Assembly (NCBI GenBank): GCA_035517415.1
Contig: DATIYW010000113.1
Span: 1 to 11,082, forward strand
From: Thermoanaerobaculaceae bacterium
GTDB lineage: Bacteria; Acidobacteriota; Thermoanaerobaculia; Thermoanaerobaculales; Thermoanaerobaculaceae
Reading direction: 5' to 3'
DNA length: 11,082 bases
A program made the position numbers and the translations under genes. The first letter of the stretch is position 1. Each line of letters begins with the position of its first letter. The notes under the pieces are model-generated. The model was given only the letters and a program-made list of their open reading frames with translations, did not search any database and was not told where the DNA came from. Below are positions 1-11,082 of the stretch, one piece after another.

Positions 1-1
1 G

Positions 2-133
2 GAGACGGGTTTCTTGCGGGATTTACTCTTTGTTCGGAGCGGTCATCCCGTCGAATTCGAGGTTCTGGCCGCGGCCGACGTTGGGAAGGTGCCGAGAGCG
101 TGGCGAACGATCCGGCTAGTGCCGCAGCGCTAG
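2..133 (+). CDS. Possible 3' end of an upstream gene-cassette ORF (partial, runs off the left edge)
   Basis: Frame 2 is open from the window edge for 43 codons (…ETGFLRDLLFVRSGHPVEFEVLAAADVGKVPRAWRTIRLVPQR*). The TAG at 131-133 lies 8 bp before the attC-like inverse core at 141-147, the same stop-then-attC arrangement seen for the VOC ORF. Codons are visibly AT-richer (tta, ttt, gat, cat) than the backbone. No homology recognised. Confidence 0.3.
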   Translation, partial: ETGFLRDLLFVRSGHPVEFEVLAAADVGKVPRAWRTIRLVPQR

Positions 134-140
134 GGGGGTT

Positions 141-238
141 GCCTAACATGCCGTTGCAGCCGTCCCACTCGGCTGTCACGCCGCTTGCGTGCGCTACAGG
201 CGCGCCAGCCAGCGGGCGGCTGAATGGCGGCGTTGGGC
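141..238 (+). other. attC-like recombination site (integron cassette-associated), copy 1
   Basis: GCCTAAC (141-147) fits the inverse core RYYYAAC, and GTTGGGC (232-238) fits the core GTTRRRY. The two are near-complementary (GTTAGGC vs GTTGGGC). The outer ~22 bp arms are imperfect inverted repeats with unpaired bases, GCCTAACATGCCGTTGCAGCCG versus the reverse complement of CGGCTGAATGGCGGCGTTGGGC. Total length of 98 bp is within the attC range. It sits between an ORF stop (131-133) and the next ORF start (282). Confidence 0.55.
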
Positions 239-281
239 AGCGTAGGGCGTCAGTCACAAACGTAGAGGCGAGAGGAAGAAG

Positions 282-710
282 ATGAGCAAGAAAGCAGAAG
301 GAGAGTTCAAGGTCCTATTTGTCGCTGGGTTCGGTCCCATTGTCCAAGACATCCCCAGCTCCCACAAGTTCTATGTGGATGCTCTCGGCTTGTCCTTCCA
401 GAAGGAGGCGGGAGACTATCTACACACAGAGAAATTGGAAGGCGCCATGACTTTTGCTCTCTGGCCGCTTTCGCAGGCAGCACAATCCTGTTTTGGGTCA
501 GAGATCTGGCCATCGGACCTTCCGGCACCTCAAGCATGGCTGGAGTTCGACGTTGATGACATTGAGCGGGCCAGCACAGAACTACAGAGAAGTGGATATA
601 GGTTGTTGTCGAGAGCACAGAAAGAGCCGTGGGGACAGATTGTTACTCGTTTGCTCAGTCCCGAGGGCATATTGGTCGCGGTCACTGTTACGCCGGCGAT
701 GCGCAGATAG
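282..710 (+). CDS. VOC (glyoxalase/bleomycin-resistance/dioxygenase) family protein; probable integron cassette ORF
   Basis: 142-aa ORF with a VOC-like C-terminal motif (FDVDDIERASTELQRSGYRLLSRAQKEPWGQIVTRLLSPEGILVAVT). An AG-rich SD, gagaggaagaag, lies just upstream of the ATG. GC is markedly lower than neighbouring genes, with many A/T-ending codons. It is flanked by attC-like repeats, and its stop at 708-710 is ~15 bp before copy 2. Confidence 0.8.
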   Translation: MSKKAEGEFKVLFVAGFGPIVQDIPSSHKFYVDALGLSFQKEAGDYLHTEKLEGAMTFALWPLSQAAQSCFGSEIWPSDLPAPQAWLEFDVDDIERASTELQRSGYRLLSRAQKEPWGQIVTRLLSPEGILVAVTVTPAMRR

Positions 711-724
711 TCACTATGTCGGGC

Positions 725-815
725 GCCTAGCCAGCGCTTGCAGCCATTCCACTTGGCTGTCACGCCGCGTGCGTGCGCAACCCGCGCGCTGACCGGCGGC
801 GGTGCGACGGGCAAC
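725..815 (+). other. attC-like site, copy 2 (degenerate; probable terminal attC of the array)
   Basis: It is an imperfect direct repeat of 141-238: GCCTAGC…GCTTGCAGCC…CCACTTGGCTGTCACGCCGCGTGCGTGCGC…GGCGGCGG…GGGC. The inverse core has one mismatch (GCCTAGC). The core-site region reads GGTGCGACGGGC, so GTT has become GGT with a ~5 bp insertion. The end coordinate is approximate. Confidence 0.4.
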
Positions 816-944
816 GGCGGGCGAGACGATGACCCACGCTGAGGGCCGCACTCCGGTTCTCCGAGAGGCCCTCGCCACCTGTCGGGAGCCGGCACGGCGT
901 GGCGATCCGGCGGCGAGGAGCGGGCGAGTCGGCTGGACCGTCCC

Positions 945-1928
945 TCAGTCGTGCGCGCCGGCGCCCCGGAGCGCTGCCTCGATCTCCTTCTTGCTGAAGA
1001 TCTTCGCGAACATCAGCGGGGTCGCGCCGCCGGGCGCCTTGGTGTTGACGTTGGCGCCCGCCTTGATCAGCACGTTGACGATCTCGACCCCGGTGCAGTG
1101 CTGCGCGGCGGCGAGCAGCGGCGTGATGCCGTTCTTCGCGCCAGCATCGACCTTGGCGCCCGCCGCGAGCAGCGCCTTCGTCATCTCCAGCGCCTCGGCC
1201 TCGTGCTGGTAGGCGCACTGCGTGACCGCGGAGGCGAGGGGCTGCTGGTCGGAAGGTCCCGGCTGGTTCGGCGACATGCCGAGCTTGAGGAAGAGGCCGA
1301 CCGCCTCGACGTTGGAGTCGCTCACCGCGTGCATGAACATCTCCGGGTTGTACTCGTAGCCGAGCTTGCCGAGCCGCACCTTCATCTGCGTCTTGGGGTC
1401 GCCCGGCGCGGCCTCCGCGGCGGCGGCCGGCTCCTCCGCCTCGGGCTCCAGCTCGAGCGTGCCGCCCGGCTGGATCGCGGCCTTCACCTTCGCCTGGAAG
1501 AACCAGCTCTGGCCCAGCATCTTGGACTGTATCGAGCCCTCGAACCGTGCCCCGTCGTAGCGCTCGAGGTCGATCGACGGGTGCTCGACGCCGCGCTTGC
1601 CGCTGTCCGGCAGTCCCAGCGCGTACGGCACCGCGACGACGCGGTCGAGGCCCTCCGCCCAGAGGACGCGCACGGCGCGCAGCTTGCCCGCCGCGGCCAG
1701 CTCGGCGAGGCGCGCCGGGGTGCGGTCGCCGGGCGCGACCGGCGCATCGCTGGCAAGCACGACCAGCCACGACTCCGACGGCGTGTCGGGGTCCGCCTGC
1801 TTGGAGACCGCGACGCTCTTGAGCGCGATCGGCTTGCCGTTGACGGTCAGGGTGCCGACCACCGAGTCGGCGGCCAGCGTGGCGGTGGCGAAGAGGCCGG
1901 CGATGACTGCAGCCCACAGGTGTCTCAT
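945..1928 (-). CDS. Secreted ankyrin-repeat protein
   Basis: ATG at 1928 (MRHLWAAVIAGLFATATLAADS…) is preceded by GGAGGA, and the N-terminus is signal-peptide-like. The C-terminus carries two clear ANK repeats (NGITPLLAAAQHCTGVEIVNVLIKAGANVN; GGATPLMFAKIFSKKEIEAALRGAGA). The track ORF begins 4 codons earlier, but that ATG overlaps the SD. The ~200-aa N-terminal region is unassigned. Confidence 0.75.
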   Translation of the reverse strand: MRHLWAAVIAGLFATATLAADSVVGTLTVNGKPIALKSVAVSKQADPDTPSESWLVVLASDAPVAPGDRTPARLAELAAAGKLRAVRVLWAEGLDRVVAVPYALGLPDSGKRGVEHPSIDLERYDGARFEGSIQSKMLGQSWFFQAKVKAAIQPGGTLELEPEAEEPAAAAEAAPGDPKTQMKVRLGKLGYEYNPEMFMHAVSDSNVEAVGLFLKLGMSPNQPGPSDQQPLASAVTQCAYQHEAEALEMTKALLAAGAKVDAGAKNGITPLLAAAQHCTGVEIVNVLIKAGANVNTKAPGGATPLMFAKIFSKKEIEAALRGAGAHD

Positions 1929-2000
1929 CGGTTCCTCCATCCGGGACGCGGGTTCGCGGCGCGTGACCGGAATTCTAGCGCAGGCGCCGCGCCGACGGCG

Positions 2001-3725
2001 TCACGACGGGAGGCGGCCGGCGCGGTAGGGGTAGAAGCGCGGCGTCCACTGCGCGCGGCGGATCAGCGCCGCCAGGCCGTCGTCGTCGAGGAGGCGCCCG
2101 AGGCCCGCCCGCCGCGCCTCGATCGCCACCGCCCGCGCGACCGTGAACGCGACCTCGCCGATCGACTCCATGCGCGGCAGCAGCAGGCCTTGGGCGAGCT
2201 CCTGCGGCGTGACCATCGCTGCGAGCGCCTTGGCGCCCTCGACGAACATGCGGTCGGTGATGCGCGCGGCGCGCGAGACCAGCGCGCCGAGGCCCACGCC
2301 CGGGAACATGTAGAGGTTGTTGCACTGCGAGATCGCGATGCGGCGGTCGTCCCACGGCACCGGGTCGAACGGGCTCCCGGTCGCCACCAGCGCGCGGCCG
2401 CCGCTGGCGCGCAGCGCTTCGAACGGCGTGCACTCGGAGCGGTCGGTCGGGTTGGAGAGCGCGAGGATCGCCGGGCGCGGGTCGTTGGCGGCCATCTGCT
2501 GGAGGATCTCCGCGTCGAAAAGCCCGCGCATCGCGGTGTAGCCGATCAGCGCGGTGGCGCGCGCGTTGCGCACGACGTCGGCGAGAGCGATCCGGTCCGG
2601 CGCGGCGAGCTTCCAGGTCGCGACGACGCCGCGTGGCTGGGCGAACGGCCGCTGCGCCTGCTCGAGCGCCGGGTCGCCCTCGACCAGCAGCCCCTGCCGG
2701 TCGACGGCGAAGATGCGCCGCCGCGCCTCCTCGTCGGGCAGCCCGTCCTCGACGAGGATGGCGCGCAGCGCCTCCGCAGTGCCGATCCCGGCCTGGCCCA
2801 TGCCGGCGATGACGAAGCTCTGCTCGGCGAACCGGCTGCCCTTGATCCGCATCGCCGCCAGCAGCGCGGCGCAGGCGGTGGCTCCGGTGCCCTGGATGTC
2901 GTCGTCGAACGAGAGCACGCGCTCGCGGTAGCGCGCGAGCAGGCGGAACGCCTTGTCCTTGGCGAAGTCCTCCCACTGCACCAGCGCGTCGGGGAAGTTG
3001 CGCTTGACGCCGAGCACGAAGCGCTCGACGAAGCGGTCGTACTCGTCGCCGGTCAGGCGCGGCCGGCGGGTGCCGAGGTAGAGCGGGTCGGCGAGCAGGC
3101 GCTCGTTGTTGGTGCCGACGTCGAGGCAGACCGGCAGGCAGACCGCCGGGTGGATGCCGCCGGCGGCGACGTAGAGGCTGACCTTGCCGACCGGGATCCC
3201 CATGCCGTCGGCGCCGAGGTCGCCGAGGCCGAGGATGCGCTCGCCGTCAGTGACCACCATCAGCCTCACCTCCGGCGCGGGGAGGCTCTGGAGGATCCTG
3301 TCGATGTTGGCGATGTTTTCCGGGTGGAAGTAGATCCCGCGCGGGCGCCGCATGATGCGCGAGAGCAGCATGCAGGCCTGGCCGACCGTCGGGGTGTAGA
3401 CGATCGGCAGCATCTCGGTGAGGTTCTCGGCGAGGACCTGGTAGAACAGCGTCTCGTTGCGGTTGAGCAGGCCGAGCAGGTAGAGGTAGCGCTCGAGGTC
3501 GTCGGGCTTGCGGCGGTACGACTCGAGCGCGCGCGCCGCCTGCTCCTCGATGTTCGAGACGCCGGGGGGGAGCAGGCCGGAGAGCTCGAGCGAGGTGCGC
3601 TCCTCGAGCGTGAACTGCGAGCCCTTGTTGAGCAGCGGGTCGGCGATCAGCTGCTGGCCGCGCAGGTAGACCTCGTAGTACTCCTCGCCGGTCAGCGGAT
3701 CGATCTTGAACGAGAAGCTCTTCAT
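2001..3725 (-). CDS. maeA: NAD(P)-dependent malic enzyme (malate dehydrogenase, oxaloacetate-decarboxylating)
   Basis: It starts MKSFSFKIDPLTGEEYYEVYLRGQQLIADPLLNKGSQFTLEER…, the malic-enzyme N-terminal domain. The nucleotide-binding GAGxAG-like motif (VIAGMGQAGIGTAEAL) and the rest of the fold are recognisable throughout. ATG at 3725 is preceded by a G-rich SD. The 43 upstream codons in the track ORF are Arg/Ser-rich and judged non-coding. Confidence 0.85.
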   Translation of the reverse strand: MKSFSFKIDPLTGEEYYEVYLRGQQLIADPLLNKGSQFTLEERTSLELSGLLPPGVSNIEEQAARALESYRRKPDDLERYLYLLGLLNRNETLFYQVLAENLTEMLPIVYTPTVGQACMLLSRIMRRPRGIYFHPENIANIDRILQSLPAPEVRLMVVTDGERILGLGDLGADGMGIPVGKVSLYVAAGGIHPAVCLPVCLDVGTNNERLLADPLYLGTRRPRLTGDEYDRFVERFVLGVKRNFPDALVQWEDFAKDKAFRLLARYRERVLSFDDDIQGTGATACAALLAAMRIKGSRFAEQSFVIAGMGQAGIGTAEALRAILVEDGLPDEEARRRIFAVDRQGLLVEGDPALEQAQRPFAQPRGVVATWKLAAPDRIALADVVRNARATALIGYTAMRGLFDAEILQQMAANDPRPAILALSNPTDRSECTPFEALRASGGRALVATGSPFDPVPWDDRRIAISQCNNLYMFPGVGLGALVSRAARITDRMFVEGAKALAAMVTPQELAQGLLLPRMESIGEVAFTVARAVAIEARRAGLGRLLDDDGLAALIRRAQWTPRFYPYRAGRLPS

Positions 3726-3755
3726 GACGCCCCCCCGGAACTCCGTCAGCCTGCG

Positions 3756-3769
3756 TCGCGATCGCGACC
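3756..3769. promoter_or_regulatory. 14-bp perfect palindrome GTCGCGATCGCGAC; candidate operator in a divergent promoter region
   Basis: It is a perfect inverted repeat, read directly. It lies ~30 bp upstream of the malic enzyme start and ~65 bp upstream of the DUF1697 start. An extra half-site TCGCGAC sits at 3782-3788. A -10-like TATGAT at 3799-3804 is positioned for the + strand cluster. Confidence 0.45.
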
Positions 3770-3835
3770 AGCATACTCGCTCGCGACCGGCGCTCGGGTA
3801 TGATCCGCGTCGCAAGCCAGGAAGGGAACGCGGCA

Positions 3836-4378
3836 ATGACGAGGTGCGTCGCACTCCTCCGTGCTGTCAACGTCGGCGGCCGCAAGCCGGTCGCGATGGC
3901 CGACCTGCGCCGGCTCGCCTCGGACCTTGGCTTCGCCGAGCCGCAGACCCTGCTCCAGAGCGGCAATCTCGTCTTCACCTGCGGCGACGGCGAGCTGCCC
4001 CACGCCGAGCGCCGCCTGGAGCGCGAGGCCGCGGAGCGCCTCGGCCTGACCACGGAGGTGTTCCTTCGCACCGCGGCGGACCTCGACCGGGTGATCGCGC
4101 GCAACCCGTTCCCCGAGCAGGCGGCAGGCGATCCCGCCCGCCTCCACGTCGTGTTCCTGCGGCGCGCGCCCGACCGGGCCGGCGTCGAGTCGCTGCGAGC
4201 GGCGATCACCGGCCGGGAGGTGGTCGCGTACGGAGGCCGCGAACTCTACGCCGTCTACCCCGAGGGCGCCGGTCGTTCGCGCCTGACGCTGCCGCTGATC
4301 GAGCGGCGCCTCGGCGCGCACGGCACCGCGCGCAACTGGAACACCGTCCTCCGCCTCGCGGCCGCGGTGCGGTCCTGA
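3836..4378 (+). CDS. DUF1697 family protein
   Basis: MTRCVALLRAVNVGGRKPVAMADLRRLASDLGFAEPQTLLQSGNLVF… matches the characteristic DUF1697 N-terminus (LLRGINVGG…V.MA.LR…LGF..V.T.IQSGNV.F). ATG at 3836 has GAAGGGAA 7 nt upstream. The earlier ATG at 3800 in the track lacks an SD. Confidence 0.75.
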   Translation: MTRCVALLRAVNVGGRKPVAMADLRRLASDLGFAEPQTLLQSGNLVFTCGDGELPHAERRLEREAAERLGLTTEVFLRTAADLDRVIARNPFPEQAAGDPARLHVVFLRRAPDRAGVESLRAAITGREVVAYGGRELYAVYPEGAGRSRLTLPLIERRLGAHGTARNWNTVLRLAAAVRS

Positions 4379-4398
4379 CCGGCCGGCGCCAAACGGCT

Positions 4399-4953
4399 AT
4401 GATCTCGACGCGGCGACCGATGACGGCGAGCGATCCGACCCCGAGTGGGGCGGCGATCCGTTGGCCGGCGGCGTTCGAGCCGAGCCGCAGCCCGGTCCAC
4501 GTCCGCAACCAGATCGAGATCGCGGCGAGCGCGGAGCGCGTGTGGGCCTGGCTCGTGCGCGCCGAGCGCTGGCCCGAGTGGTACGCCAACTCGCGCGACG
4601 TGCGCTTCCTCGCCGGGCGGCCGCCCGACCTCGCGCCCGGCGCGCGTTTCCGCTGGCGCACGTTCGGCGTGCGGATCTCCTCGCGCGTGCTCGAGTTCGA
4701 GCCTCCGCACCGGCTCGCGTGGGACGCCCGCGGCGTCGGCGTGCGCGCGTACCACGCCTGGCTGCTGGAGGAATCGTCGGGCGGCTGCCGCGTTCTCACC
4801 GAGGAGACGCAGCGCGGGTGGGTGGCTCGCCTCGGCGCGCGGCTGATGCCCGCGCGGATGTGGCGGGGACACCAGCTCTGGCTCGAGTCGCTGCGCGATC
4901 GCGCGCCGGCGGACGCGCCCGACCGGGTCGAGCCTCCCGGTCCGATCGGATAG
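4399..4953 (+). CDS. SRPBCC (Bet v1-like / polyketide cyclase-dehydrase-like) family protein
   Basis: The C-terminal part of the long track ORF 3706..4953 carries the SRPBCC-like core (HVRNQIEIAASAERVWAWLVRAERWPEWY…RFRWRTFGVRISSRVLEFEPPHRLAWD…). The start is uncertain: ATG at 4399 or 4420, both with weak SD. Everything upstream of ~4399 in that frame overlaps DUF1697 in another frame and is rejected. Confidence 0.6.
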   Translation: MISTRRPMTASDPTPSGAAIRWPAAFEPSRSPVHVRNQIEIAASAERVWAWLVRAERWPEWYANSRDVRFLAGRPPDLAPGARFRWRTFGVRISSRVLEFEPPHRLAWDARGVGVRAYHAWLLEESSGGCRVLTEETQRGWVARLGARLMPARMWRGHQLWLESLRDRAPADAPDRVEPPGPIG

Positions 4954-4961
4954 GAGGCGCC

Positions 4962-5333
4962 GTGGAACAACTGGAGCATCCGGAGCACTCGCAAGCGCGG
5001 CGGTCCTGGCATCTCGCCGGGCACATGGTGTCGCGCGGCTACGCGCTGCTGCCGCTGGCGCTCGGCACGCTCGCGGCGGGGATGGCGATCTACCACTGGG
5101 TCGAGGGGCTGGCCTGGCCCGACGCGTTTCTCAACGCGGCGATGCTGCTCGGCGGGATGGGGCCGGTCGACCAGCTCCACACCACCGCCGGCAAGTGGCT
5201 GGCGGGCTTCTATGCGCTGTTCGCCGGCGTCGTTTTCCTCGTCCTCGCCGGCGTGATGCTCGCCCCGGTGCTCCACCACGTGCTGCAGCGGTTCCACCTC
5301 GAGACGGCGGAGAAGGGCGCCCGGAAGGGATGA
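4962..5333 (+). CDS. Small hypothetical membrane protein (two predicted TM helices)
   Basis: GTG at 4962 follows AGGAGG (4952-4957), which overlaps the upstream TAG stop (4951-4953), suggesting translational coupling. Hydrophobic segments are ALLPLALGTLAAGMAIYHW and WLAGFYALFAGVVFLVLAGVMLAPVL. The alternative ATG at 5025 has no SD. No family recognised. Confidence 0.5.
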   Translation: MEQLEHPEHSQARRSWHLAGHMVSRGYALLPLALGTLAAGMAIYHWVEGLAWPDAFLNAAMLLGGMGPVDQLHTTAGKWLAGFYALFAGVVFLVLAGVMLAPVLHHVLQRFHLETAEKGARKG

Positions 5334-5379
5334 GCGCTCGGCGCCGGCGCGAGCCCGCTCGCCCCGTTGGCGGCCGCCG

Positions 5380-5817
5380 TTGAGGCTCTGGACGCTCCAT
5401 CCGCGCTACCTCGACGCGCGCGGCCTGACCGCGGTGTGGCGCGAGGCGCTGCTGGCGCAACGGGTGCTGCAGGGCCTCACCCGCGGATACCGCTCGCACC
5501 CCCAGCTCGAGCGCTTTCGCGCGCAGCCCGACCCGGTCGCCGCGATCGCGGCATACCTCGTCGGCGTGCTCGAGGAGGCGACCGCGCGCGGGTACCGCTT
5601 CGACGCCGCCAGGGTCGTGGCGCCGCCGTCGCGCCGGCGGATCGACGAGACCGAGGGCCAGCTGCGCCTCGAGTGGCGGCACCTGCTGGCCAAGCTCGCG
5701 GTCCGGGCGCCGGAACTGGCTGACCGCTTCCGCCGCGTCGACCTGCCCGAGGCTCACCCGCTCTTCCGCATCGTCCCAGGGGAGCGCCGCGAGTGGGAGC
5801 GCGCGCCGGCGAACTAA
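5380..5817 (+). CDS. Pyrimidine dimer DNA glycosylase-like (Pyr_excise family-like) protein
   Basis: The N-terminus MRLWTLHPRYLDARGLTAVWREALLAQRVLQGLTRGYRSHPQLERF matches my recollection of the conserved MRLWSLHP.YLD..GL.A.WREALLAQ start of bacterial proteins annotated as pyrimidine-dimer DNA glycosylase. The ORF uses a TTG start with no clear SD. Family membership is from memory and needs a profile search. Confidence 0.5.
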   Translation: MRLWTLHPRYLDARGLTAVWREALLAQRVLQGLTRGYRSHPQLERFRAQPDPVAAIAAYLVGVLEEATARGYRFDAARVVAPPSRRRIDETEGQLRLEWRHLLAKLAVRAPELADRFRRVDLPEAHPLFRIVPGERREWERAPAN

Positions 5818-5837
5818 AATCGGCGCGGGAGGGGACG

Positions 5838-6326
5838 ATGGAAGCTGCCGTCGACACTGCGCGCGAGCTGCTGCGGCACACCCTGGCGACGCTTGCCTAC
5901 CGCGGCGGGAAGGCGGTGCGCGGCGCGCCGCCGGAGTTCGCCGCGACCCGGTTCGGCCAGGGCAGCCGGACGCCCGGCGAGATCCTGGCGCACGTCGGCG
6001 ACCTGCTCGACTGGTCGCTGTGGCTGGCGCGGGGCAAGCACGTCTGGCACGACTCGCCGCCGCAGGGCTGGGACCTCGACACGGCGCGCTTCTTCGCCGC
6101 CGCGGGCGCCCTCGACGCGCTGCTCGCCTCGAGCGTGCCGCTGGGGTGCCCGATCGAGCGGCTGTTCCAGGGTCCGATCGCCGACGCGCTCACCCACGTC
6201 GGCCAGATCGCGATGCTGCGGCGCATGGCGGGGGCGCCGATCCGCGGCGAGAACTACTTCAAGGCGGAGATCCACGCTGGCCGCGTGGGCGCCGAACAGG
6301 CCGCGCCGGTGCGCGAGTTCGACTGA
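5838..6326 (+). CDS. DinB/YfiT-like (DinB_2 superfamily) putative metal-dependent enzyme
   Basis: ATG at 5838 is preceded by GGGAGGGGAC. The protein has the DinB-like layout: LLRHTLATLAYR…, a His-containing ILAHVGDLLDW, and C-terminal ALTHVGQIAMLRR, which resembles the H..HRGQ…LR motif. The track ORF starts 15 codons earlier without an SD. Confidence 0.6.
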   Translation: MEAAVDTARELLRHTLATLAYRGGKAVRGAPPEFAATRFGQGSRTPGEILAHVGDLLDWSLWLARGKHVWHDSPPQGWDLDTARFFAAAGALDALLASSVPLGCPIERLFQGPIADALTHVGQIAMLRRMAGAPIRGENYFKAEIHAGRVGAEQAAPVREFD

Positions 6327-6351
6327 GTCGGACGCGCGCAGCTGCACCGCT

Positions 6352-6378
6352 CCGGCGACTCCAGCGCGACCTCGCCGG
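6352..6378. terminator. Candidate bidirectional terminator hairpin between convergent genes
   Basis: CCGGCGA (6352-6358) and TCGCCGG (6372-6378) form a 7-bp GC stem with a 13-nt loop. It lies between the DinB-like stop at 6326 and the reductase-like stop at 6397. There is no U-tract, which is common in high-GC genomes. Confidence 0.25.
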
Positions 6379-6396
6379 CGAACGGGCTCGGATGAG

Positions 6397-7050
6397 CTAC
6401 TTCCGCAGCAGCTTGAACGCGTGGTCCCAGCTGTTGGTGCGGATGCCGTAGAGCACCCACAGGATGCACATCGGCTCCAGAAGCCTCGCGCCCTCGATGC
6501 CACCGAGGTCGATGGTCGGCCAGCCGAACTCCTTGAGGATGGTCGTCACCACCGCCTTGGCGTCCGCGTCGTTGCCGGCGATGAGCATGTCGGGCGGGCC
6601 GCCCGGAAAGCTCGGGTTCACCATGTGCGCGAACCCGACGGTGTTGAACGCCTTCACCACCCGCGACTCGGGCAGCCAGCGCTGCACCTGCTCGCCGCCC
6701 GAGTCGTTGTGGCCGAGCGCCAGCGCGGGCGGCGCGTTGGGCGCGAACACGAGGGGGTTGGTGGCGTCGATCACGACCTTGCCGGCGAGGTGCTTCGGGT
6801 TGGCGAGACGGATCGCGCTCTCGGTCCCGCTCCACAGCGTCGCCAGCACCACCACCTCGCCGAACTTCGCGGTCTCCGCGAACGTGCCGGCGGTGGCGCC
6901 GTGGCCGACCTTCGCCAGCATCGCCGTGACCTTCTCGCTGCCGGGCTCGCGCGAGCCGACCTTGACCTCGTGACCGTGCTTCGCGAATCCGGTCGCCAGC
7001 GACCGCCCGACGTCGCCCGTGCCCAGGATCCCAATCCGCGATTTGGCCAT
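6397..7050 (-). CDS. NADP oxidoreductase, coenzyme F420-dependent family (NADPH-dependent F420 reductase-like / dinucleotide-binding) protein
   Basis: MAKSRIGILGTGDVGRSLATGFAKHGHEV is a Rossmann GxGxxG N-terminus typical of the F420_oxidored / ProC-like family. ATG at 7050 has GGAGG 6 nt upstream. The track uses a TTG two codons earlier. Confidence 0.7.
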   Translation of the reverse strand: MAKSRIGILGTGDVGRSLATGFAKHGHEVKVGSREPGSEKVTAMLAKVGHGATAGTFAETAKFGEVVVLATLWSGTESAIRLANPKHLAGKVVIDATNPLVFAPNAPPALALGHNDSGGEQVQRWLPESRVVKAFNTVGFAHMVNPSFPGGPPDMLIAGNDADAKAVVTTILKEFGWPTIDLGGIEGARLLEPMCILWVLYGIRTNSWDHAFKLLRK

Positions 7051-7146
7051 CGTCAACCTCCGGACGGGAGAACACCCGGCGCCGCCGCCAATTTCCCGAT
7101 CCGAGAGCCCAGCGATGGGCCGGATTCGTCGCGATGACGCGCGAGC

Positions 7147-7163
7147 GTGGCGGAGGGGAGGAG
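7147..7163. repeat. Direct repeat of the tRNA-Ser 3' end (18-bp identity CGTGGCGGAGGGGAGGAG at 7146-7163 and 7187-7204)
   Basis: Exact match, read directly. The repeated segment covers CCA, the discriminator, the acceptor 3' strand and the start of the T-stem. The copies are 41 bp apart. Confidence 0.7.
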
Positions 7164-7188
7164 CCTGCGGGGCGATGCGGCGCCGCCG

Positions 7189-7276
7189 TGGCGGAGGGGA
7201 GGAGGTTCGAACTCCTGAGGGCTTGCACCCTGCCAGTTTTCAAGACTGGTGCCTTCGACCGCTCGGCCACCCCTCC
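7189..7276 (-). tRNA. tRNA-Ser (anticodon UGA), class II with long variable arm, encoded CCA
   Basis: Reverse complement: GGAGGGGTGGCCGAGCGGTCGAAGGCACCAGTCTTGAAAACTGGCAGGGTGCAAGCCCTCAGGAGTTCGAACCTCCTCCCCTCCGCCA. The acceptor is 7 bp (GGAGGGG/CCCCTCC) with discriminator G. It has a 3-bp D-stem with a long D-loop, and an anticodon stem CCAGT/ACTGG around loop CTTGAAA (anticodon TGA). There is a long variable arm and a T-loop TTCGAAC. It is very similar to E. coli tRNA-Ser(UGA). Confidence 0.93.
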
Positions 7277-7443
7277 GCAGGCGCGGGCAGCATAGGTCCG
7301 CCACGGAGCAAGCTCAAGCCGGACGGCGTGGGACCGAATGGGGCTCAACCGGGGCGACGCCCCCGCGGGCGCGAGTGGCTCTGCCGGGAGAGATCGTGCC
7401 TCGCCAATCCGGACCGCAGCGGCCGCGGCTGAGCCGCTCCGAG

Positions 7444-7851
7444 CTAGCCCTCCGACTCGGCGATCAGGCGCTTCGCGAAGGCCGCCTGGCTCTCCGGTAC
7501 GAGCAACCGCGTGCACGTGGCCCAGTCCGTCTGACCGTCGAAGTCGCGGCCGTCGTCGAGGAACTCGATCACGACGACGCCGTTCGCCGCGAGCAGCGCG
7601 AGCGCCGGCCCGGCGTCGTCGCGGCTGTCGAACGCCGCCACCGCCACGACCTGCTCGGCGACCGGCGGCACCTGCTCCGTCTCCGGCGCCGCGTCGAGCT
7701 GGATCTCAGCGCGTGATGCGGCCGACTGCACAGCGGCCACCTCCTCGACCAGCGTTGCGCCGCAGATCGGGCAGACCGTCACGCCGTCGACGTATTCGCC
7801 GTGGATGCGGCTCTCGACGAAATCCGGGCACTCGCGGTTCGGGCAGAACAC
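7444..7851 (-). CDS. Zinc-ribbon + DUF2007-like small protein
   Basis: GTG at 7851 is preceded by GAGGAGG with a 5-nt spacer. The N-terminus has a Cys4 ribbon (CPNRECPDF…CPICG). The C-terminus (VAVAAFDSRDDAGPALALLAANGVVVIEFLDD…CTRLLVPESQAAFAKRLI) resembles DUF2007, the putative signal-transducing fold. It lies 50 bp downstream of the flotillin-like gene on the same strand. Confidence 0.6.
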   Translation of the reverse strand: MFCPNRECPDFVESRIHGEYVDGVTVCPICGATLVEEVAAVQSAASRAEIQLDAAPETEQVPPVAEQVVAVAAFDSRDDAGPALALLAANGVVVIEFLDDGRDFDGQTDWATCTRLLVPESQAAFAKRLIAESEG

Positions 7852-7900
7852 CGGCGCCTCCTCGTGTCGATCTCGGGTGGCATCTGACCGCTCGACTCGC

Positions 7901-10030
7901 TCACGTCGCGTCGATCTCGCGCTCGGCCGAGTCGTCGATCGACTCGGGCGTGGCGCCCTGATCCGGGTCCTCCGCGCGGGCGAAGCGCCGCGCCAGCTCG
8001 GCGGCGAACCTCTCGAGGTCCTCGAGCCCCTTCGGCGCGTCGGTGGGGCTCAGTCCGGTCCTCTCCGCCAAGAGGATCGCGATCAGCTGCGTGAACACGT
8101 TCGCCACGCCCGGCCCGCCGCCCTCGGCGCCGCCTCCCATCGTGAACAGCCGCTCCGGCACGATCGGCTGGGCGCTGTGGGCGAACTGGTCGGCGACGAG
8201 CGAGAGCGCGAACAGGCGCGGGTCGCCGTAGGCGCGGATCTTCTGCAGGAATACCGCCGCCTCCGACAGGCCGGTCTGCGCGATCCTGGCGCCCTCGCCC
8301 TTGCCGAACAGCTCCTTCGAGCGCGCCTCGCCGAGCGCGCGGACGACGTCGCGCTTGGCCAGCCGCCGCGCCTCGGCCAGCTGCGCCTCGCCGCGGTTGC
8401 CGGAGATCGCCACGTCGACCTGGGTCTGCGTCAGCTCGGTCTGCTTGTCGGCCGAGGCGCGCGCGTCGTTCAGCTCGCGGAGCTGCTTGGCCGCCTCCTC
8501 CTGCTTGGCGAAGGTCTGCTTCTGCTCCTCGGCGAGCCGGCGGGCGCGGAGCTGGTCGAAGAGCAGCTCGATCGGGTCCTGCTGGCCCTCGGGGACGCGC
8601 GACTCCGGGCGTCCGATCAGCACCGCGATGCAGTTGATGTCGTACTCCTGGAAGCGCCGCCCGAGCTCCTCGGTGGCGCGCTTCTGGATGTCCTCGCGCT
8701 TGGTCAGCAGGTCGAGCATGTGCGAGCTCTGCGCCACGTCGCGGAAGTACGACGAGAGGATCGGGTCGAGCGTCTGCGAGATCAGCCGGCGCACGTCGCC
8801 GAAGCGCTGGATCACCGACGGCGCCTTCTCGTAGTCGATGTGGAGCACGAGGGAGAGCGGCAGCACCGGCTCGTAGCCGTCCGCGGTGATCAGGTCGATG
8901 CTGGTGAGGTCCTTGTCGTACTGGTGCTCCTCGGCCTGGCCGGTGATCCAGCGCAGCACGAAGTTCACGGTCGGAACCAGCTCGACCTTGAGCGCGTAGG
9001 GGTTCAACGGGTACTTGCCGGGGGCGAGCGCGCGCTTCCACACGCCGCGCTGGCCGGCCTCGACCTGCTCGCCGTAACGGAACCCGGTGCCGGTGACGTC
9101 GGCGCCGCGCCCGCCGAAGTACGACACCACCACGCCGACGTAGCCGATCGGGATGAGCGTCTTGGGATTCATCTCGACGGTGGCGAACCAGCGGTTGAGG
9201 AAGAACGTGCCGTCGGTGAGCACCTGGAGCTGCTTGCCGCGGCGTCCGCCGAGCGCGAGGAACGCCTCGGGGTCCTGGAAGTAGTTGTGGTCCGTCTCGC
9301 CGTGGGCCGGCTTGACCTCGGGGGCGATGATCTCGGAGGTCTCGATCGGCGGCCCGTCCTGCACCGTCACCACGCCGATCGTGTCGGTCGCGGTGATGCG
9401 GATGTCGGCGCCGCCGACCGCGCGGTCCGCGCCCGCCGCCGCCTCGCGGCCGCCGTGGCCGACGATCACCGGCGTGAAGCCGCCGATCGCGCGGAGCTGG
9501 CTCTGCCACTCCGCGTACTTCGCCCCGTGCTCCTGGATCGGGCCGGAGTACACGCGCTCCTCGGTGATGACGACGAACTGCGCCAGGTTCACGGCGAAAA
9601 CGCCTTCACGGAGGATCGCGCGCTGGCGGCCGCGCTGGCCGCCCTTGGTCAGGAAGCCGCGCGCGTCCTGGAAGTGGTTGCCGTCGGCGATCCGTCCGAG
9701 CGTCTGGGTCGGCGGCAGGGGAGAGCCGTCGCGGGCGTAGACGTAGCCGATCCGGCTCTCCGCGATCATTACGAGCGGCTCCCGGTGGACGCGGTACTGC
9801 CAGGGGAAGTAGCCGAAGTGCAGGCCGCCGCGGAGGATCTCGGCCTGGAACCCGGCCTCGCCGTCGAGCGCAATGATCTTGCCGGACTTGAGCGAGCCCT
9901 TCGCCGACCAGTACTTCTCGATGATGCCGACCTTGTTGTGCGGGATGTAGCGGAGCCCGAGCAGCCACTTGAGCAGAATCAAGCCGACGACCACGCCGAT
10001 CGGGACGTACGCGATAGGGGGTATGGGCAT
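7901..10030 (-). CDS. Flotillin-like SPFH/Band-7 domain membrane protein (large, ~709 aa)
   Basis: ATG at 10030 (MPIPPIAYVPIGVVVGLILLKWLLGL, an N-terminal TM helix) is preceded by AGGAGG. An SPFH-like core runs …SIDLITADGYEPVLPLSLVLHI…LDPILSSYFRDVAQ…DINCIAVLIGRPE. The C-terminus is Glu/Ala/Gln-rich and coiled-coil, typical of flotillins. The upstream part of the track ORF (to 10441) is low-complexity and overlaps the divergent promoter, so it is rejected. Confidence 0.65.
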   Translation of the reverse strand: MPIPPIAYVPIGVVVGLILLKWLLGLRYIPHNKVGIIEKYWSAKGSLKSGKIIALDGEAGFQAEILRGGLHFGYFPWQYRVHREPLVMIAESRIGYVYARDGSPLPPTQTLGRIADGNHFQDARGFLTKGGQRGRQRAILREGVFAVNLAQFVVITEERVYSGPIQEHGAKYAEWQSQLRAIGGFTPVIVGHGGREAAAGADRAVGGADIRITATDTIGVVTVQDGPPIETSEIIAPEVKPAHGETDHNYFQDPEAFLALGGRRGKQLQVLTDGTFFLNRWFATVEMNPKTLIPIGYVGVVVSYFGGRGADVTGTGFRYGEQVEAGQRGVWKRALAPGKYPLNPYALKVELVPTVNFVLRWITGQAEEHQYDKDLTSIDLITADGYEPVLPLSLVLHIDYEKAPSVIQRFGDVRRLISQTLDPILSSYFRDVAQSSHMLDLLTKREDIQKRATEELGRRFQEYDINCIAVLIGRPESRVPEGQQDPIELLFDQLRARRLAEEQKQTFAKQEEAAKQLRELNDARASADKQTELTQTQVDVAISGNRGEAQLAEARRLAKRDVVRALGEARSKELFGKGEGARIAQTGLSEAAVFLQKIRAYGDPRLFALSLVADQFAHSAQPIVPERLFTMGGGAEGGGPGVANVFTQLIAILLAERTGLSPTDAPKGLEDLERFAAELARRFARAEDPDQGATPESIDDSAEREIDAT

Positions 10031-10127
10031 GATGCCTCCTGAGAAAACACCGTTGCTGATGGCGATTCTACTCCCTCCGCCGCGAGGCGCGGCGCGCGCG
10101 TCCCGCCCTGCACTACACTGCGCCCCC

Positions 10128-11045
10128 ATGACCGTGCTCGCCGGGCTCGTCCCGGTCTTCCTGCTGCTGGTTGTCGGCGTCGTCGCCCGGCGCTTCGGCG
10201 TGCTCGACGATCCGGCCGCGAATGGACTGAATCGGCTGGTCACCAACGTCGCCCTGCCGGCGCTGTTCATCTCGACCGTCGGCACCGCGCCGCTCGAGTC
10301 GGCGTTTTCGCCGCCGGTGATCCTGGCGACTTCGCTCGCGTCGGTGGCGATCGCGGCCGCGGCGCTGCTCGTCGCGCGCTCGTGGCGGCTGCCGGCGAAC
10401 CAGCGCGGCGTGATGGCGCAGGCGTCGCAGCGCGGCAACATCGTCTACTTCACTTTCCCGATCATCCTTGCGATGTACGGTCAGAGCGGGCTGCAGCTGG
10501 CGGCGGTGACCTCGACGCTGCTGATCCCGGTGATGAACCTGCTCGCGGTCGGATCGCTCGAGCTGCACCGTGCGCCGTCGAAGGGCAAGGCACACTTCCT
10601 CGTCCGAGTCGTCGCCAACCCGTTGGTGTCGAGCGCGCTGCTCGGCCTGGCGCTGGCGGCGGTCCACTGGCGCCCGTGGGCGTGGCTCGACAACGGGCTC
10701 AAGATCCTCGCGGGGCTGGCGTTCCCCGGGGCGCTGCTCGCGCTCGGGGCGCAGCTCGAGGTGGGGAAGTGGCGCGCCTACGCCCGCCAGCTCGGCGCGG
10801 TCGGCGCGCTCAAGCTGGCGGCGATGCCGGCGCTCGGCTGGTGGCTGCTGATTCTGCTCCACGCCTCGCGCCGCGACACCGCGATCGGCGTGCTGCTCCT
10901 CGCGTCGCCGACCGCGGTGGCGAGCCACTCGGTGGCGGCGGACCTCGGCGGCGACATCGAGCTCGCCTCCGCCTGCGTGCTCGTCACGACGATCGCGTCC
11001 GTGGTCACCTACGCCGCCTGGAGCCTGCTGCTCGGCACCCGCTGA
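10128..11045 (+). CDS. AEC (auxin efflux carrier) family transporter / malate-permease-like
   Basis: The N-terminus MTVLAGLVPVFLLLVVGVVARRFGVLDD…LVTNVALPALF is typical of AEC-family permeases. It is multi-TM throughout. ATG at 10128 has no obvious SD. The upstream part of the track ORF (from 9969) overlaps the flotillin-like start and promoter. Confidence 0.7.
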   Translation: MTVLAGLVPVFLLLVVGVVARRFGVLDDPAANGLNRLVTNVALPALFISTVGTAPLESAFSPPVILATSLASVAIAAAALLVARSWRLPANQRGVMAQASQRGNIVYFTFPIILAMYGQSGLQLAAVTSTLLIPVMNLLAVGSLELHRAPSKGKAHFLVRVVANPLVSSALLGLALAAVHWRPWAWLDNGLKILAGLAFPGALLALGAQLEVGKWRAYARQLGAVGALKLAAMPALGWWLLILLHASRRDTAIGVLLLASPTAVASHSVAADLGGDIELASACVLVTTIASVVTYAAWSLLLGTR

Positions 11046-11070
11046 CGCCGGCGTCGGTGTCCCGTAGAAT
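11043..11070 (+). promoter_or_regulatory. Candidate sigma70-like promoter pointing out of the right edge
   Basis: TGACGC (11043-11048), a 16-nt spacer, then TAGAAT (11065-11070). Pattern only; the downstream gene is not in the window. Confidence 0.25.
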
Positions 11071-11082
11071 GGCCTCGTGTCC

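What the first reader, a model, noticed from the sequence alone, without database searches (positions are those of the whole stretch)
282..710. Sharp compositional island: a VOC/glyoxalase-family cassette gene with much lower GC than its surroundings
By eye this ORF has many AAA/AAG/GAT/TAT/TTT codons and a GC content probably in the 50s. Every other recognisable gene in the window is ~70% GC or more, with G/C-ending codons. The transition coincides with the attC-like repeats. VOC-family proteins (fosfomycin/bleomycin resistance, glyoxalases) are a recurrent cargo of integron cassettes. It is therefore most likely a horizontally acquired, possibly detoxification- or resistance-type gene.
Basis: seen in the sequence. 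Interest (0 to 1): 0.55.

Follow-up and report, generated by a model that had tools for sequence, protein, structure and literature searches.

The report
Low-GC VOC gene integron cassette
A small 54%-GC gene sitting in a 72%-GC soil-bacterium genome is a genuine integron gene cassette encoding a glyoxalase-fold (VOC) protein, which is a well-documented kind of mobile cargo, so the finding is correct but ordinary.

Summary
Observation confirmed. ORF 282-710 has 53.6% GC and 59% GC3. The rest of the contig is 72% GC (z = -6.7), and host genes have GC3 of 0.91-0.96.

The dip is bounded by two copies of a 98-nt attC. A covariance model built only from 14 attCs of other metagenomes hits 141-238 (98 bits, E 2e-21; intact R'' GCCTAAC and R' GTTGGGC). 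It also hits 725-822 (35 bits; degenerate, GTT lost). The same attC family forms 4-7-site arrays next to bona fide integron integrases elsewhere.

Homology to the same VOC cassette in other contigs starts at the R' crossover. A related genome shares window 1-233 up to that point and then carries a different cassette, beside the same host genes.

The protein passes the Pfam VOC thresholds and folds as a VOC (pLDDT 82). Its best structural match is the mitomycin-binding protein MRD. All four canonical metal-ligand positions are G/A/W/A, so it is not glyoxalase I or FosA. It is under purifying selection (dN/dS about 0.16). Its substrate is unknown.

VOC cassettes and Acidobacteria attCs are already described, so this is a new member of a known kind. 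One oddity: the same ORF carries unrelated attC interiors in different hosts.

The parts
1..133 (+). 3' end of the preceding cassette's ORF (frame +2, last 43 codons, stop TAG 131-133). The contig starts inside this cassette.
   Evidence: Frame +2 is open from base 2 to the TAG at 131-133. Window 1-233 is 89% identical to L102 14139-13907, which holds the 3' end of a 137-aa ORF (L102 14007-14420, -) plus its attC, and the reading frame is preserved. That ORF has no Pfam hit.
141..238 (+). attC1, an intact 98-nt attC belonging to the preceding cassette. R'' is GCCTAAC (141-147) and R' is GTTGGGC (232-238). The predicted crossover lies between G232 and T233.
   Evidence: Model R1, built from 14 attCs of other metagenomes, scores it 98.4 bits (E 2.3e-21) on the + strand and 33.1 bits on the - strand. 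It folds as one long imperfect hairpin: bottom strand -33.1 kcal/mol, z -2.9. In the family, 95.5% of cells are paired, with compensatory changes in the spacer stem. The bulged bases lie on the R''/L'' arm.
233..822 (+). The VOC gene cassette as a unit: from the TT of R' through the 5' leader, the ORF and its own degenerate attC.
   Evidence: blastn homology to other VOC cassettes (L082/L083 88%, L084 84%, L007 79%) starts at window 230-231 and ends at 718-745. Homology to the relative L102, which lacks the cassette, ends at 233.
239..281 (+). Cassette 5' leader (56% GC) with a Shine-Dalgarno-like AGAGGAAG at 271-278. No promoter was detected.
   Evidence: The leader is conserved with other VOC cassettes (GTTAGGCAGCATGAGCGTCAGTCACAAAC..AGGAGAAAGGAAGAAT ATG). 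The sigma-70 and terminator scans of 1-1000 found 0 sites.
282..710 (+). VOC-superfamily ORF of 142 aa, with 53.6% GC and GC3 of 0.594.
725..822 (+). attC2, the cassette's own attC. It is a degenerate member of the same 98-nt family: R'' is GCCTAGC, the R' position reads GGCGGGC (GTT lost), and the right arm has decayed.
   Evidence: R1 scores it 35.1 bits (E 1.8e-6) with about 20 broken pairs. Its interior is 75% identical to that of attC1 (z 8.8 against shuffles). It does not fold as a hairpin (bottom strand z +0.46).
945..1940 (-). First host-backbone gene (ankyrin-repeat protein, GC3 0.955), convergent with the array. It marks the end of the island.
   Evidence: Pfam Ank_2/Ank and GC3. Orthologues lie next to malic enzyme and a homologous cassette array in L102. 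An independent JGI contig, L101, is 98.4% identical over window 852-2090.

Best explanation
The window is a complete 11-kb contig of a Thermoanaerobaculaceae (Acidobacteriota) MAG. Its left end lies inside a chromosomal integron cassette array.

Shown:
- Positions 233-822 are the last cassette of that array. It consists of a promoterless leader with a ribosome-binding site, a 142-aa VOC-fold gene, and a decayed attC.
- The cassette lies downstream of the intact attC of the preceding cassette (141-238).
- The junction homologies break at the G232|T233 point of that attC's R' box, which is where IntI-mediated insertion predicts them.
- The gene keeps a foreign composition (54% GC, GC3 0.59). This resembles its relatives in 52-56%-GC Terriglobia and Verrucomicrobiota genomes and in other arrays.

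Inferred:
- An integron integrase placed the cassette at that point. The integrase lies off the contig. It is present next to the same attC family in other contigs.
- The cassette's own attC has lost the GTT of R' and most of its stem. It is therefore probably fixed in place, and expressed only by read-through from upstream.

The protein:
- It is under purifying selection and has the two-module beta-alpha-beta-beta-beta VOC cup.
- It lacks all four canonical metal ligands (G16, A59, W86, A133).
- The most likely mechanism, at about 0.4 probability, is non-enzymatic capture of a planar aromatic or quinone-type toxin in the cup. Binding would occur between the conserved H48 and W117, which align with the stacking clamp of the mitomycin-binding protein MRD.
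- This would give tolerance by sequestration, possibly with hand-over to an exporter.
For: Composition.

attC identity: model R1, built without any window sequence, hits exactly 141-238 (98.4 bits) and 725-822 (35.1 bits), and nothing else scores above 20 bits. The family alignment has 94% column identity, with flanks diverging immediately outside R'' and R'. Pairing is 95.5%, against 26-50% when the partners are slid by one to three columns.

Integron linkage of the family: arrays of 4-7 attCs occur in L085, L086, L089 and L093. The integrases at L089:305-1438 and L090:3-911 score 459 and 447 bits on TIGR02249 (cut-off 265).

Cassette mobility:
- The same ORF, leader and 3' flank are bounded by GTTRRRY upstream and GCCTAAC downstream in L002, L010, L013, L082, L083 and L084.
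- L082 and L083 share the VOC cassette up to the GTT of its downstream attC R' box and diverge after it.
- Relative L102 shares window 1-233 (89%) and then carries an alpha/beta-hydrolase cassette instead. The array lies beside the orthologous malic-enzyme and ankyrin genes.

Protein:
- Pfam thresholds are passed, and no NCBIfam equivalog matches.
- AF2 pLDDT is 82.
- The top Foldseek hit is MRD 1kmz, TM 0.67/0.74.
- GlxI H74 aligns to W86. By register, H5 aligns to G16 and E122 to A133. These positions are G, A, W and G/A in all 84 family members.
- The phmmer alignment puts H48 and W117 on MRD residues 38 and 108.
- PMC3175449 describes the two-aromatic stacking clamp of MRD and EhpR, and the absence of catalytic residues in such binders.
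- dN/dS is 0.15-0.17 to the nearest relatives.

Literature: VOC (COG0346) cassettes are enriched in cassette pools of every environment sampled (PMC10661359). An Acidobacteria-specific attC model exists (PMC8352920).
Against: No integrase or attI is on the contig, so formally this is a truncated array or CALIN.

The cassette's own attC is degenerate, so present-day mobility is doubtful.

attC2 belongs to the resident attC family rather than to the attCs carried by other VOC cassettes. Simple IntI-mediated transfer of the whole cassette does not predict this.

For the sequestration mechanism:
- Sequence similarity to MRD is marginal (E 0.01, 21% identity).
- Ble-like_N scores 23.5 bits, below its cut-off of 24.5.
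- The N-terminal module of the model has low confidence (pLDDT 51-72 for residues 31-60).
- The family has an unusually rigid set of invariant polar residues: Y31, Y46, H48, T49, C70, E88, D90, Q119 and R123. That fits an enzyme at least as well as a promiscuous binder.
- The assignment of MRD His38 and Trp108 as the clamp residues is from memory of Martin et al. 2002, not from a text read here.
Confidence: 0.8

Rival explanations
1. Same cassette, different biochemistry. The protein is an enzyme with a non-canonical active site, possibly a shifted metal site, built from the invariant H48, E88, D90, C70, Y46 and R123. It would chemically transform a widespread soil electrophile or toxin as an isomerase, lyase, hydrolase or thiol transferase, rather than merely binding it.
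For: 21 positions are invariant or nearly so across 84 sequences of 59-100% identity from many phyla, including His, Cys, Glu, Asp, Arg and Gln. E88 and D90 alternate with W86 on strand beta5 and so should face the cup. dN/dS is low. Many VOC members are enzymes, and some cassette VOCs raised the fosfomycin MIC (PMC10661359). A 54%-identical homologue on a Klebsiella plasmid lies next to a DJ-1/PfpI gene.
Against: All four canonical VOC metal positions are non-coordinating residues. No equivalog or subfamily HMM matches. The best structural match is a non-catalytic binder. The closest solved relatives (4hc5, 2qnt, 2r6u) have no known activity.
Confidence: 0.4
2. The gene is a canonical glyoxalase I or a FosA/FosB/FosX-type fosfomycin-resistance enzyme carried as a resistance cassette.
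For: Generic Pfam Glyoxalase hits. VOC cassettes conferring 2-4-fold increases in fosfomycin MIC exist.
Against: The His/Glu/His/Glu ligand positions are G16, A59, W86 and A133, and are invariant as such in the family. NCBIfam equivalogs for glyoxalase-like metalloproteins, methylmalonyl-CoA epimerase and dioxygenases score 13-14 bits against cut-offs of 115-321. No FosA, FosB or GlxI structure appears among significant sequence hits.
Confidence: 0.03
3. The low-GC island is not integron-borne. The flanking repeats would be another kind of repeat (REP, MITE or terminator palindromes). Alternatively, the gene would be native and compositionally odd for functional reasons.
For: No integrase is on the contig. 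attC2 does not fold. A crude regex-plus-fold scanner found no attCs around 80 homologues.
Against: The repeat is a 98-nt unit with RYYYAAC and GTTRRRY ends, a 5-nt/6-nt asymmetric spacer and one-sided bulges. It is found in tandem arrays separated by single small ORFs and adjacent to TIGR02249 integrases. Junctions of shared and unshared DNA fall at G|TT. The repeat occurs only at the two ends of the island within 11 kb.
Confidence: 0.03
4. Assembly or binning chimera: a 54%-GC fragment from another organism was joined to a 72%-GC contig.
For: This is a short-read MAG contig that begins inside a repeat-rich array. The independent contig L101 stops at window 852, 30 nt from attC2, so it does not cross the junction. 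The ORF and attC2 show no GC amelioration.
Against: The GC-rich attCs (71-74% GC) flank the gene on both sides. In the 148-kb contig L102 of a related organism, the homologue of window 1-233 lies in an array about 3 kb from the orthologous malic-enzyme and ankyrin genes. This independently confirms the linkage between array and host backbone.
Confidence: 0.03

Closest known systems
Integron gene cassettes encoding VOC (COG0346) proteins: environmental cassette metagenomes (Ghaly et al. 2023, PMC10661359) and solved cassette proteins such as PDB 3ey7 (V. cholerae) and 3ghj (Halifax Harbour)
   Different: It is only distantly related in sequence to the solved cassette VOCs. It was not among the experimentally tested cassettes as far as could be checked, because the supplement is not held. 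Its own attC is degenerate.
MRD, the mitomycin C-binding resistance protein of Streptomyces lavendulae (PDB 1kmz/1kll), and the related binder EhpR (PMC3175449)
   Same: MRD is the best Foldseek match (E 7e-7, TM 0.67/0.74). Neither protein has the VOC metal ligands. H48 and W117 align with MRD positions 38 and 108, the stacking clamp. The PWGQ motif is shared.
   Different: Identity is only 21% and phmmer E is 0.01. The family here is far more conserved, with extra invariant polar residues (C70, E88, D90, R123). It is not linked to an antibiotic biosynthetic cluster. Binding is untested.
Structural-genomics VOC proteins 4hc5 (Sphaerobacter), 2qnt (Atu1872), 4nvs and 2r6u (RHA04853)
   Different: They have no known function, share 16-23% identity, and were not reported as cassettes.
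Sedentary chromosomal integrons or CALINs with homogeneous attC families (for example Vibrio VCR arrays, and the Acidobacteria-type attCs of Ghaly et al. 2021, PMC8352920)
   Same: A highly homogeneous attC family (94% identity over 98 nt), long arrays of small ORFs, a conserved chromosomal location with variable cassette content between relatives, and decayed terminal sites.
   Different: The integrase was not observed for this genome. In the two contigs that have it, intI points the same way as the cassettes. I recall this arrangement from the literature for some integron groups; no tool result checks that.

Membership tests
Integron gene cassette | An attC recombination site with inverse core sites R'' (RYYYAAC) and R' (GTTRRRY) at the 3' end of the cassette, and the R' of the preceding attC at its 5' boundary | tested here: inconclusive
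   The 5' boundary is met: attC1 has GCCTAAC (141-147) and GTTGGGC (232-238), scoring 98.4 bits on the independent model. The cassette's own attC2 has GCCTAGC and GGCGGGC, so the GTT is lost, and it scores 35.1 bits with about 20 broken pairs. It is a recognisable but degenerate attC.
Integron gene cassette | attC folds as an imperfect hairpin, with an unpaired spacer and extrahelical bases on one arm that set the strand and orientation | tested here: met
   attC1 folds at -33.1 kcal/mol, z -2.9. In the family, 38 pairs are 95.5% paired, with compensatory GC<->CG changes at 4 pairs. Bulges at model positions 16, 23 and 27 are all on the R''/L'' arm. The + strand scores 98 bits against 33 for the - strand. 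This is not met for attC2.
Integron gene cassette | One ORF, co-oriented with the attC, with a short leader and no promoter of its own | tested here: met
   A 43-nt leader with an SD-like AGAGGAAG lies 3 nt upstream of the ATG, and the stop lies 14 nt before R''. No sigma-70-like promoter or terminator was found. That is a consensus scan only.
Integron gene cassette | The same cassette is found in different contexts, with junctions at the G|TT recombination point | tested here: met
   Homology to L082, L083 and L007 begins at window 230, and to L084 at 231. Homology to L102, which lacks the cassette, ends at 233. L082 and L083 diverge after the downstream GTT.
Integron (complete) | An integron integrase (IntI, TIGR02249) and attI adjacent to the array | not testable with these tools
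   The contig starts inside the array (the longest contig is 11082 nt, which equals the window). The same attC family is adjacent to TIGR02249 integrases in L089 (459 bits) and L090 (447 bits).
VOC superfamily (Pfam Glyoxalase PF00903 / Glyoxalase_2 PF12681) | Score above the curated Pfam thresholds, and paired beta-alpha-beta-beta-beta modules forming a cup | tested here: met
Metal-dependent VOC enzymes (glyoxalase I, FosA/B/X, methylmalonyl-CoA epimerase, extradiol dioxygenases) | Metal ligands (His/Glu) at the conserved positions on strands beta1, beta4, beta5 and beta8 | tested here: not met
   E. coli GlxI H74 aligns to W86. By register, H5 aligns to G16 and E122 to A133, and strand beta4 (TFALWPL) has no His, Glu or Asp (the GlxI sequence was supplied from memory). 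G16, A59 and W86 are invariant, and position 133 is G or A, in 84 family members. NCBIfam equivalogs score far below their cut-offs.
Bleomycin/mitomycin-binding (sequestering) VOC proteins (BLMA, Sh ble, MRD, EhpR) | No catalytic or metal residues, plus a pair of aromatic side chains that clamp a planar ligand | tested here: inconclusive
   The metal ligands are absent. H48 (82 of 84 sequences) and W117 (84 of 84) align to MRD positions 38 and 108. MRD is the top Foldseek hit. The clamp residue numbers are from memory. The general principle is from PMC3175449.
Bleomycin/mitomycin-binding (sequestering) VOC proteins | Demonstrated stoichiometric binding of a toxin, and protection of the host | not testable with these tools
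   This needs expression, MIC and binding assays.

The most novel reading that the evidence does not exclude
One and the same cassette travels through at least four phyla. It has the same ORF, the same 45-nt leader starting at GTTAGGC, and the same 3' flank ending in GCTGCCTAAC. Yet it carries a different, host-array-specific attC interior in each place. The interiors are 61, 68, 93, 104 and 129 nt long and are not alignable. In this window the interior belongs to the resident 98-nt family. This would mean that attC interiors can be swapped or converted to the resident type while the R-box ends are kept. Possible routes are gene conversion or template switching between hairpins, or rare top-strand crossover at R''. 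Such a process would bear on how cassettes adapt to a new integrase and on the unsolved question of cassette genesis. It would also weaken taxonomic source-tracking of cassettes by attC type.
Probability: 0.3. Interest if true: 0.55.

Novelty: new member of a known kind. Interest (0 to 1): 0.3.

Why it matters
The finding is a clean, fully bounded example of integron-mediated gene flow into a very GC-rich Acidobacteriota genome. The donor-like composition is preserved, the insertion point is resolved to the nucleotide, and an "empty-site" relative is available. It adds a highly conserved, cross-phylum and even cross-domain VOC subfamily of unknown substrate to the list of cosmopolitan soil cassettes worth testing for toxin tolerance. 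It does not change what is known about integrons or VOC proteins. The one thread with wider value is the apparent replacement of attC interiors on an otherwise conserved cassette.

Tried and rejected
- Exact-sequence look-up of the ORF product in the contig index returned nothing, although the protein is in the homology database as P0001.
- A home-made regex-plus-hairpin attC scanner found only attC1 and none of the attCs later seen by eye or by the covariance model. It was too strict and was discarded.
- A tblastn search with an IntI1 probe (sequence from memory) over the 10-kb flanks of 84 VOC homologues gave only a 52-aa fragment in L002. That fragment is a truncated tyrosine recombinase, and an IS3-family transposase lies between it and the VOC gene. 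It is not an integron integrase.
- Amelioration tests gave W>S 15 against S>W 4 versus a 75% consensus, and 12 against 7 versus the four closest relatives. These values are not distinguishable from those of relatives living in 52-62%-GC contexts, so long residence could not be shown.
- Gene neighbourhoods of chromosomal homologues are not conserved, so they give no functional clue.
- The promoter and terminator scan was empty.
- The supplement with the eight experimentally tested VOC cassettes is not held.
- A paper search for the MRD clamp residues by number found nothing. A related paper gave only the general principle.
- Model R1 is family-specific. It missed the attCs of L002 and L084, so its negative results on other loci are not informative.
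- The GTTGGGA at 80-86 was considered as the R' of a further attC. It was rejected because positions 1-95 do not fold (z +1.4), R1 has no hit there, and the stretch is coding sequence of the preceding cassette.

Full report
1. THE OBSERVATION

The ORF at 282-710 (+) encodes 142 aa. Its GC is 0.536 and its GC3 is 0.594.

The rest of the window (945-11082) has 0.720 GC. Windows of 429 bp there have sd 0.027 and a minimum of 0.648. The ORF is therefore 6.7 sd below the mean.

The 200-bp profile dips to 0.53-0.55 only across about 300-700. It returns to at least 0.70 from the window starting at 701.

Every GC3-supported host ORF has GC3 of 0.91-0.96.

The window is a whole contig. The product is 100% identical to P0001, "VOC family protein [Thermoanaerobaculaceae bacterium]", whose longest contig is 11082 nt.

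2. THE FLANKING REPEATS ARE attC SITES

A direct repeat, 130-238 / 714-822, has 71% identity.

The first copy has R'' GCCTAAC (141-147) and R' GTTGGGC (232-238). It folds into one long imperfect hairpin. The bottom strand gives -33.1 kcal/mol with z -2.9.

An exact-match scan of metagenome contigs with the shared core, GGCTGTCACGCCGCNTGCGTGCGC, returned 15 loci. In all of them the conserved block is the same 98-nt unit. Similarity ends abruptly just outside R'' and R' (94% mean column identity).

A structure with a 7-bp R-box stem, a 2x3 internal loop and a long bulged stem is 95.5% paired. It is only 26-50% paired when the partners are slid by one to three columns. Compensatory GC<->CG changes occur in the spacer stem.

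I built covariance model R1 from 14 of these sites and used no window sequence. With filters off, it gives these hits on the window:
- 141-238 (+): 98.4 bits, E 2e-21. The minus strand scores only 33 bits.
- 725-822 (+): 35.1 bits, E 2e-6, with about 20 broken pairs.
- Nothing else scores above 20 bits.

The second copy has GCCTAGC at R'' and GGCGGGC where GTTRRRY should be. It does not fold as a hairpin. It is a decayed attC.

The same model finds arrays of 4-7 sites, separated by single small co-oriented ORFs, in L085, L086, L089 and L093. L089 and L090 carry integron integrases about 0.7-0.9 kb from their first attC. These score 459 and 447 bits on TIGR02249, against a cut-off of 265.

The repeat is thus an attC family of real integrons. 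An Acidobacteria-specific attC class has been described (PMC8352920).

3. THE GENE IS A CASSETTE, AND THE JUNCTIONS ARE AT THE RECOMBINATION POINT

The closest DNA relatives of the ORF are L082/L083 (88% identity) and L084 (84%). They were retrieved through P0002 and P0004.

Their alignments with the window begin at 230-231, which is the R' box at 232-238. They end at 718-745, inside the left arm of attC2.

In these loci, and in the genome loci L002, L010 and L013, the gene is bounded in the same way:
- Upstream: ...GTTAGGC|AGCATGAG..CACAAAC..AGGAGAAAGGAAGAAT ATG.
- Downstream: TAG TCACAAnTTTATGCTGCCTAAC, followed by a hairpin and then GTT.

L082 and L083 share the upstream cassette and the VOC cassette. 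They diverge immediately after the downstream GTT.

The converse case is L102, a 148-kb contig of a relative whose ankyrin protein is 76% identical. Window 1-233 matches L102 14139-13907 at 89% identity. That stretch is the 3' end of a 137-aa ORF plus its attC (77 bits). The match stops at the R' box. L102 then continues with an alpha/beta-hydrolase cassette instead of VOC.

In both genomes the array lies beside the orthologous malic-enzyme and ankyrin genes. This also argues against an assembly chimera.

The independent contig L101 is 98.4% identical over window 852-2090 and ends 30 nt from attC2. It neither confirms nor refutes the junction.

The anatomy of the window is:
- 1-133: tail of the preceding cassette ORF.
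- 141-238: that cassette's attC.
- 233-822: the VOC cassette.
- 945 onward: host backbone.

4. ORIGIN AND AGE

The family is very large: 7516 hits at E<=1e-3 among the scored candidates, with the best 120 at 72-100% identity. Representatives occur in Acidobacteriota, Verrucomicrobiota, Desulfobacterota, Gemmatimonadota, Dormibacterota, Chloroflexota and Paraburkholderia/Bradyrhizobium genomes. They also occur on a few megaplasmids, including haloarchaeal ones.

In most of the 80 genome loci, homology is restricted to the ORF and the gene's GC is close to the flank GC. In L001 (Sulfotelmatobacter) it is 0.551 against 0.552. In several GC-rich genomes the gene lies 0.10-0.15 below its flanks. 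In the window the deficit is 0.18.

Cassette bodies attached to the 98-nt attC family have 56-65% GC (mean 61%). The VOC body, at 54%, is low even for this pool.

The window copy's GC3 (0.592) equals that of its cassette relatives (0.592-0.600). Its lineage-specific changes are not GC-biased: W>S 12 against S>W 7. Most of its divergence from the nearest relative (dS 0.38) was therefore not accumulated in this genome, whose genes have GC3 of about 0.95.

dN/dS of 0.15-0.17 to the nearest relatives shows purifying selection.

5. THE PROTEIN

PF00903 and PF12681 pass their thresholds. No NCBIfam equivalog matches.

The AF2 model has mean pLDDT 82.4 and pTM 0.78. Residues 31-60 are weak.

Against E. 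coli GlxI (sequence from memory), hhalign puts H74 on W86. The alignment register puts H5 on G16 and E122 on A133, and strand beta4 has no ligand-type residue. These positions are G, A, W and G/A in all 84 family members examined. Canonical glyoxalase I and FosA chemistry is therefore excluded.

phmmer aligns H48 and W117 (in the PWGQ motif) to MRD residues 38 and 108. I recall these as the stacking clamp from Martin et al. 2002, which was not read here. PMC3175449 confirms the principle that MRD and EhpR hold planar ligands between two aromatic side chains and lack catalytic residues.

Against a simple binder, the family has invariant Y31, Y46, T49, C70, E88, D90, Q119 and R123. That pattern would suit an enzyme.

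I rate sequestration at about 0.4 and a non-canonical enzyme at about 0.4. The substrate is unknown.

6. COMPARISON WITH WHAT IS KNOWN

VOC (COG0346) cassettes are reported as present in every sample and enriched in cassette pools of all environments. Two tested cassettes gave 2-4-fold MIC shifts for fosfomycin and/or bleomycin (PMC10661359).

Chromosomal arrays with homogeneous attCs and decayed terminal sites are classical features of sedentary integrons.

The finding is therefore a new member of a known kind. The refinement is that the FosA and GlxI options are excluded, and the cassette is probably immobilised.

7. UNEXPLAINED

The attC interiors that follow the VOC ORF in L002, L083, L084, L013 and L010 are 61-129 nt long and are not alignable with one another (z<=3). 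In contrast, attC2 is 75% identical in its interior (z 8.8) to the resident attC1.

An IntI crossover at R' cannot separate an ORF from its own attC. This suggests either replacement of attC interiors or their very rapid divergence. It is the only aspect with potential wider interest.

Noticed in passing
window 1-133; L102 14007-14420 (-): The contig begins inside another cassette. Frame +2 is open to the TAG at 131-133 and is the C-terminus of a 137-aa protein that is complete in L102. The protein has no Pfam domain.
   Followed up: partly
L102 10897-15164 (-) compared with window 1-3854: A related genome has the homologous array beside the same host genes, but with different cassettes: an alpha/beta-hydrolase, RibD_C, TonB_C, and a DUF4160/DUF2442 pair. 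Several of its attCs are decayed or truncated (R'' GCCTGGC, R' GTCAGGT, and a right-arm-only remnant at 12025-11977). The order of the ankyrin and malic-enzyme genes relative to the array is swapped between the two genomes.
   Followed up: partly
L089 305-1438 with attCs from 2320; L090 3-911 with attCs at 1633 and 2268: In both contigs that carry the integrase, intI is on the same strand as the attCs and cassette ORFs and points into the array. This is not the classical divergent arrangement.
   Followed up: no
L085 5013-6733, L086 18-4136, L089 2320-4361: Arrays mix two attC length classes: the 98-nt family (95-115 bits) and sites of about 126 nt (27-45 bits on R1).
   Followed up: no
L002, L010, L013, L083, L084 downstream of the VOC stop; window 725-822: The same VOC ORF, leader and 3' flank up to R'' are followed by unrelated attC interiors of 61-129 nt in different hosts. 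The window's copy has the resident family's interior.
   Followed up: partly
L081 9540-10060, L100 3940-4470, L005, L007, L008 flanks: Several chromosomal copies keep the cassette leader and a recognisable or mutated GTTAGGC upstream, but have decayed R'' boxes downstream (for example GCCCAGC, GCCTACG, GCCTGAC). They look like ex-cassettes that have become fixed genes.
   Followed up: partly
L002 8562-9673 and 4514-5056: In a Deferrimicrobiaceae MAG the VOC cassette, with an intact 129-nt attC, sits alone next to an IS3-family transposase. A truncated tyrosine-recombinase fragment lies about 5 kb upstream, and no integron integrase lies within 10 kb.
   Followed up: partly
L103 (Klebsiella aerogenes plasmid NZ_CP139388.1, record positions 34691-39803): A conjugative IncFII plasmid from a blood isolate carries two copies of a homologue (the copy matched is 54% identical). 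They flank DJ-1/PfpI, LysR and pmrD genes and are not in an integron. Haloarchaeal Halocatena megaplasmids carry 55-58%-identical homologues.
   Followed up: partly
L101 (JGI Ga0335079_10539522) = window 852-2090: An independent assembly of nearly the same strain (98.4% identity) breaks 30 nt from the end of attC2. A repeat-induced assembly break at the edge of an array would look like this.
   Followed up: no
window 282-710, protein positions 31, 46, 48, 49, 70, 88, 90, 119, 123: Invariant polar residues (Y, Y, H, T, C, E, D, Q, R) and four invariant Trp occur across 84 sequences from many phyla. This suggests a specific, conserved ligand or reaction.
   Followed up: partly
window 9969-10441: The longest ORFs of the SPFH/Band-7 gene (7901-10441, -) and the auxin-efflux-carrier-type transporter (9969-11045, +) overlap by about 470 nt at their 5' ends. 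The true starts are probably internal.
   Followed up: no
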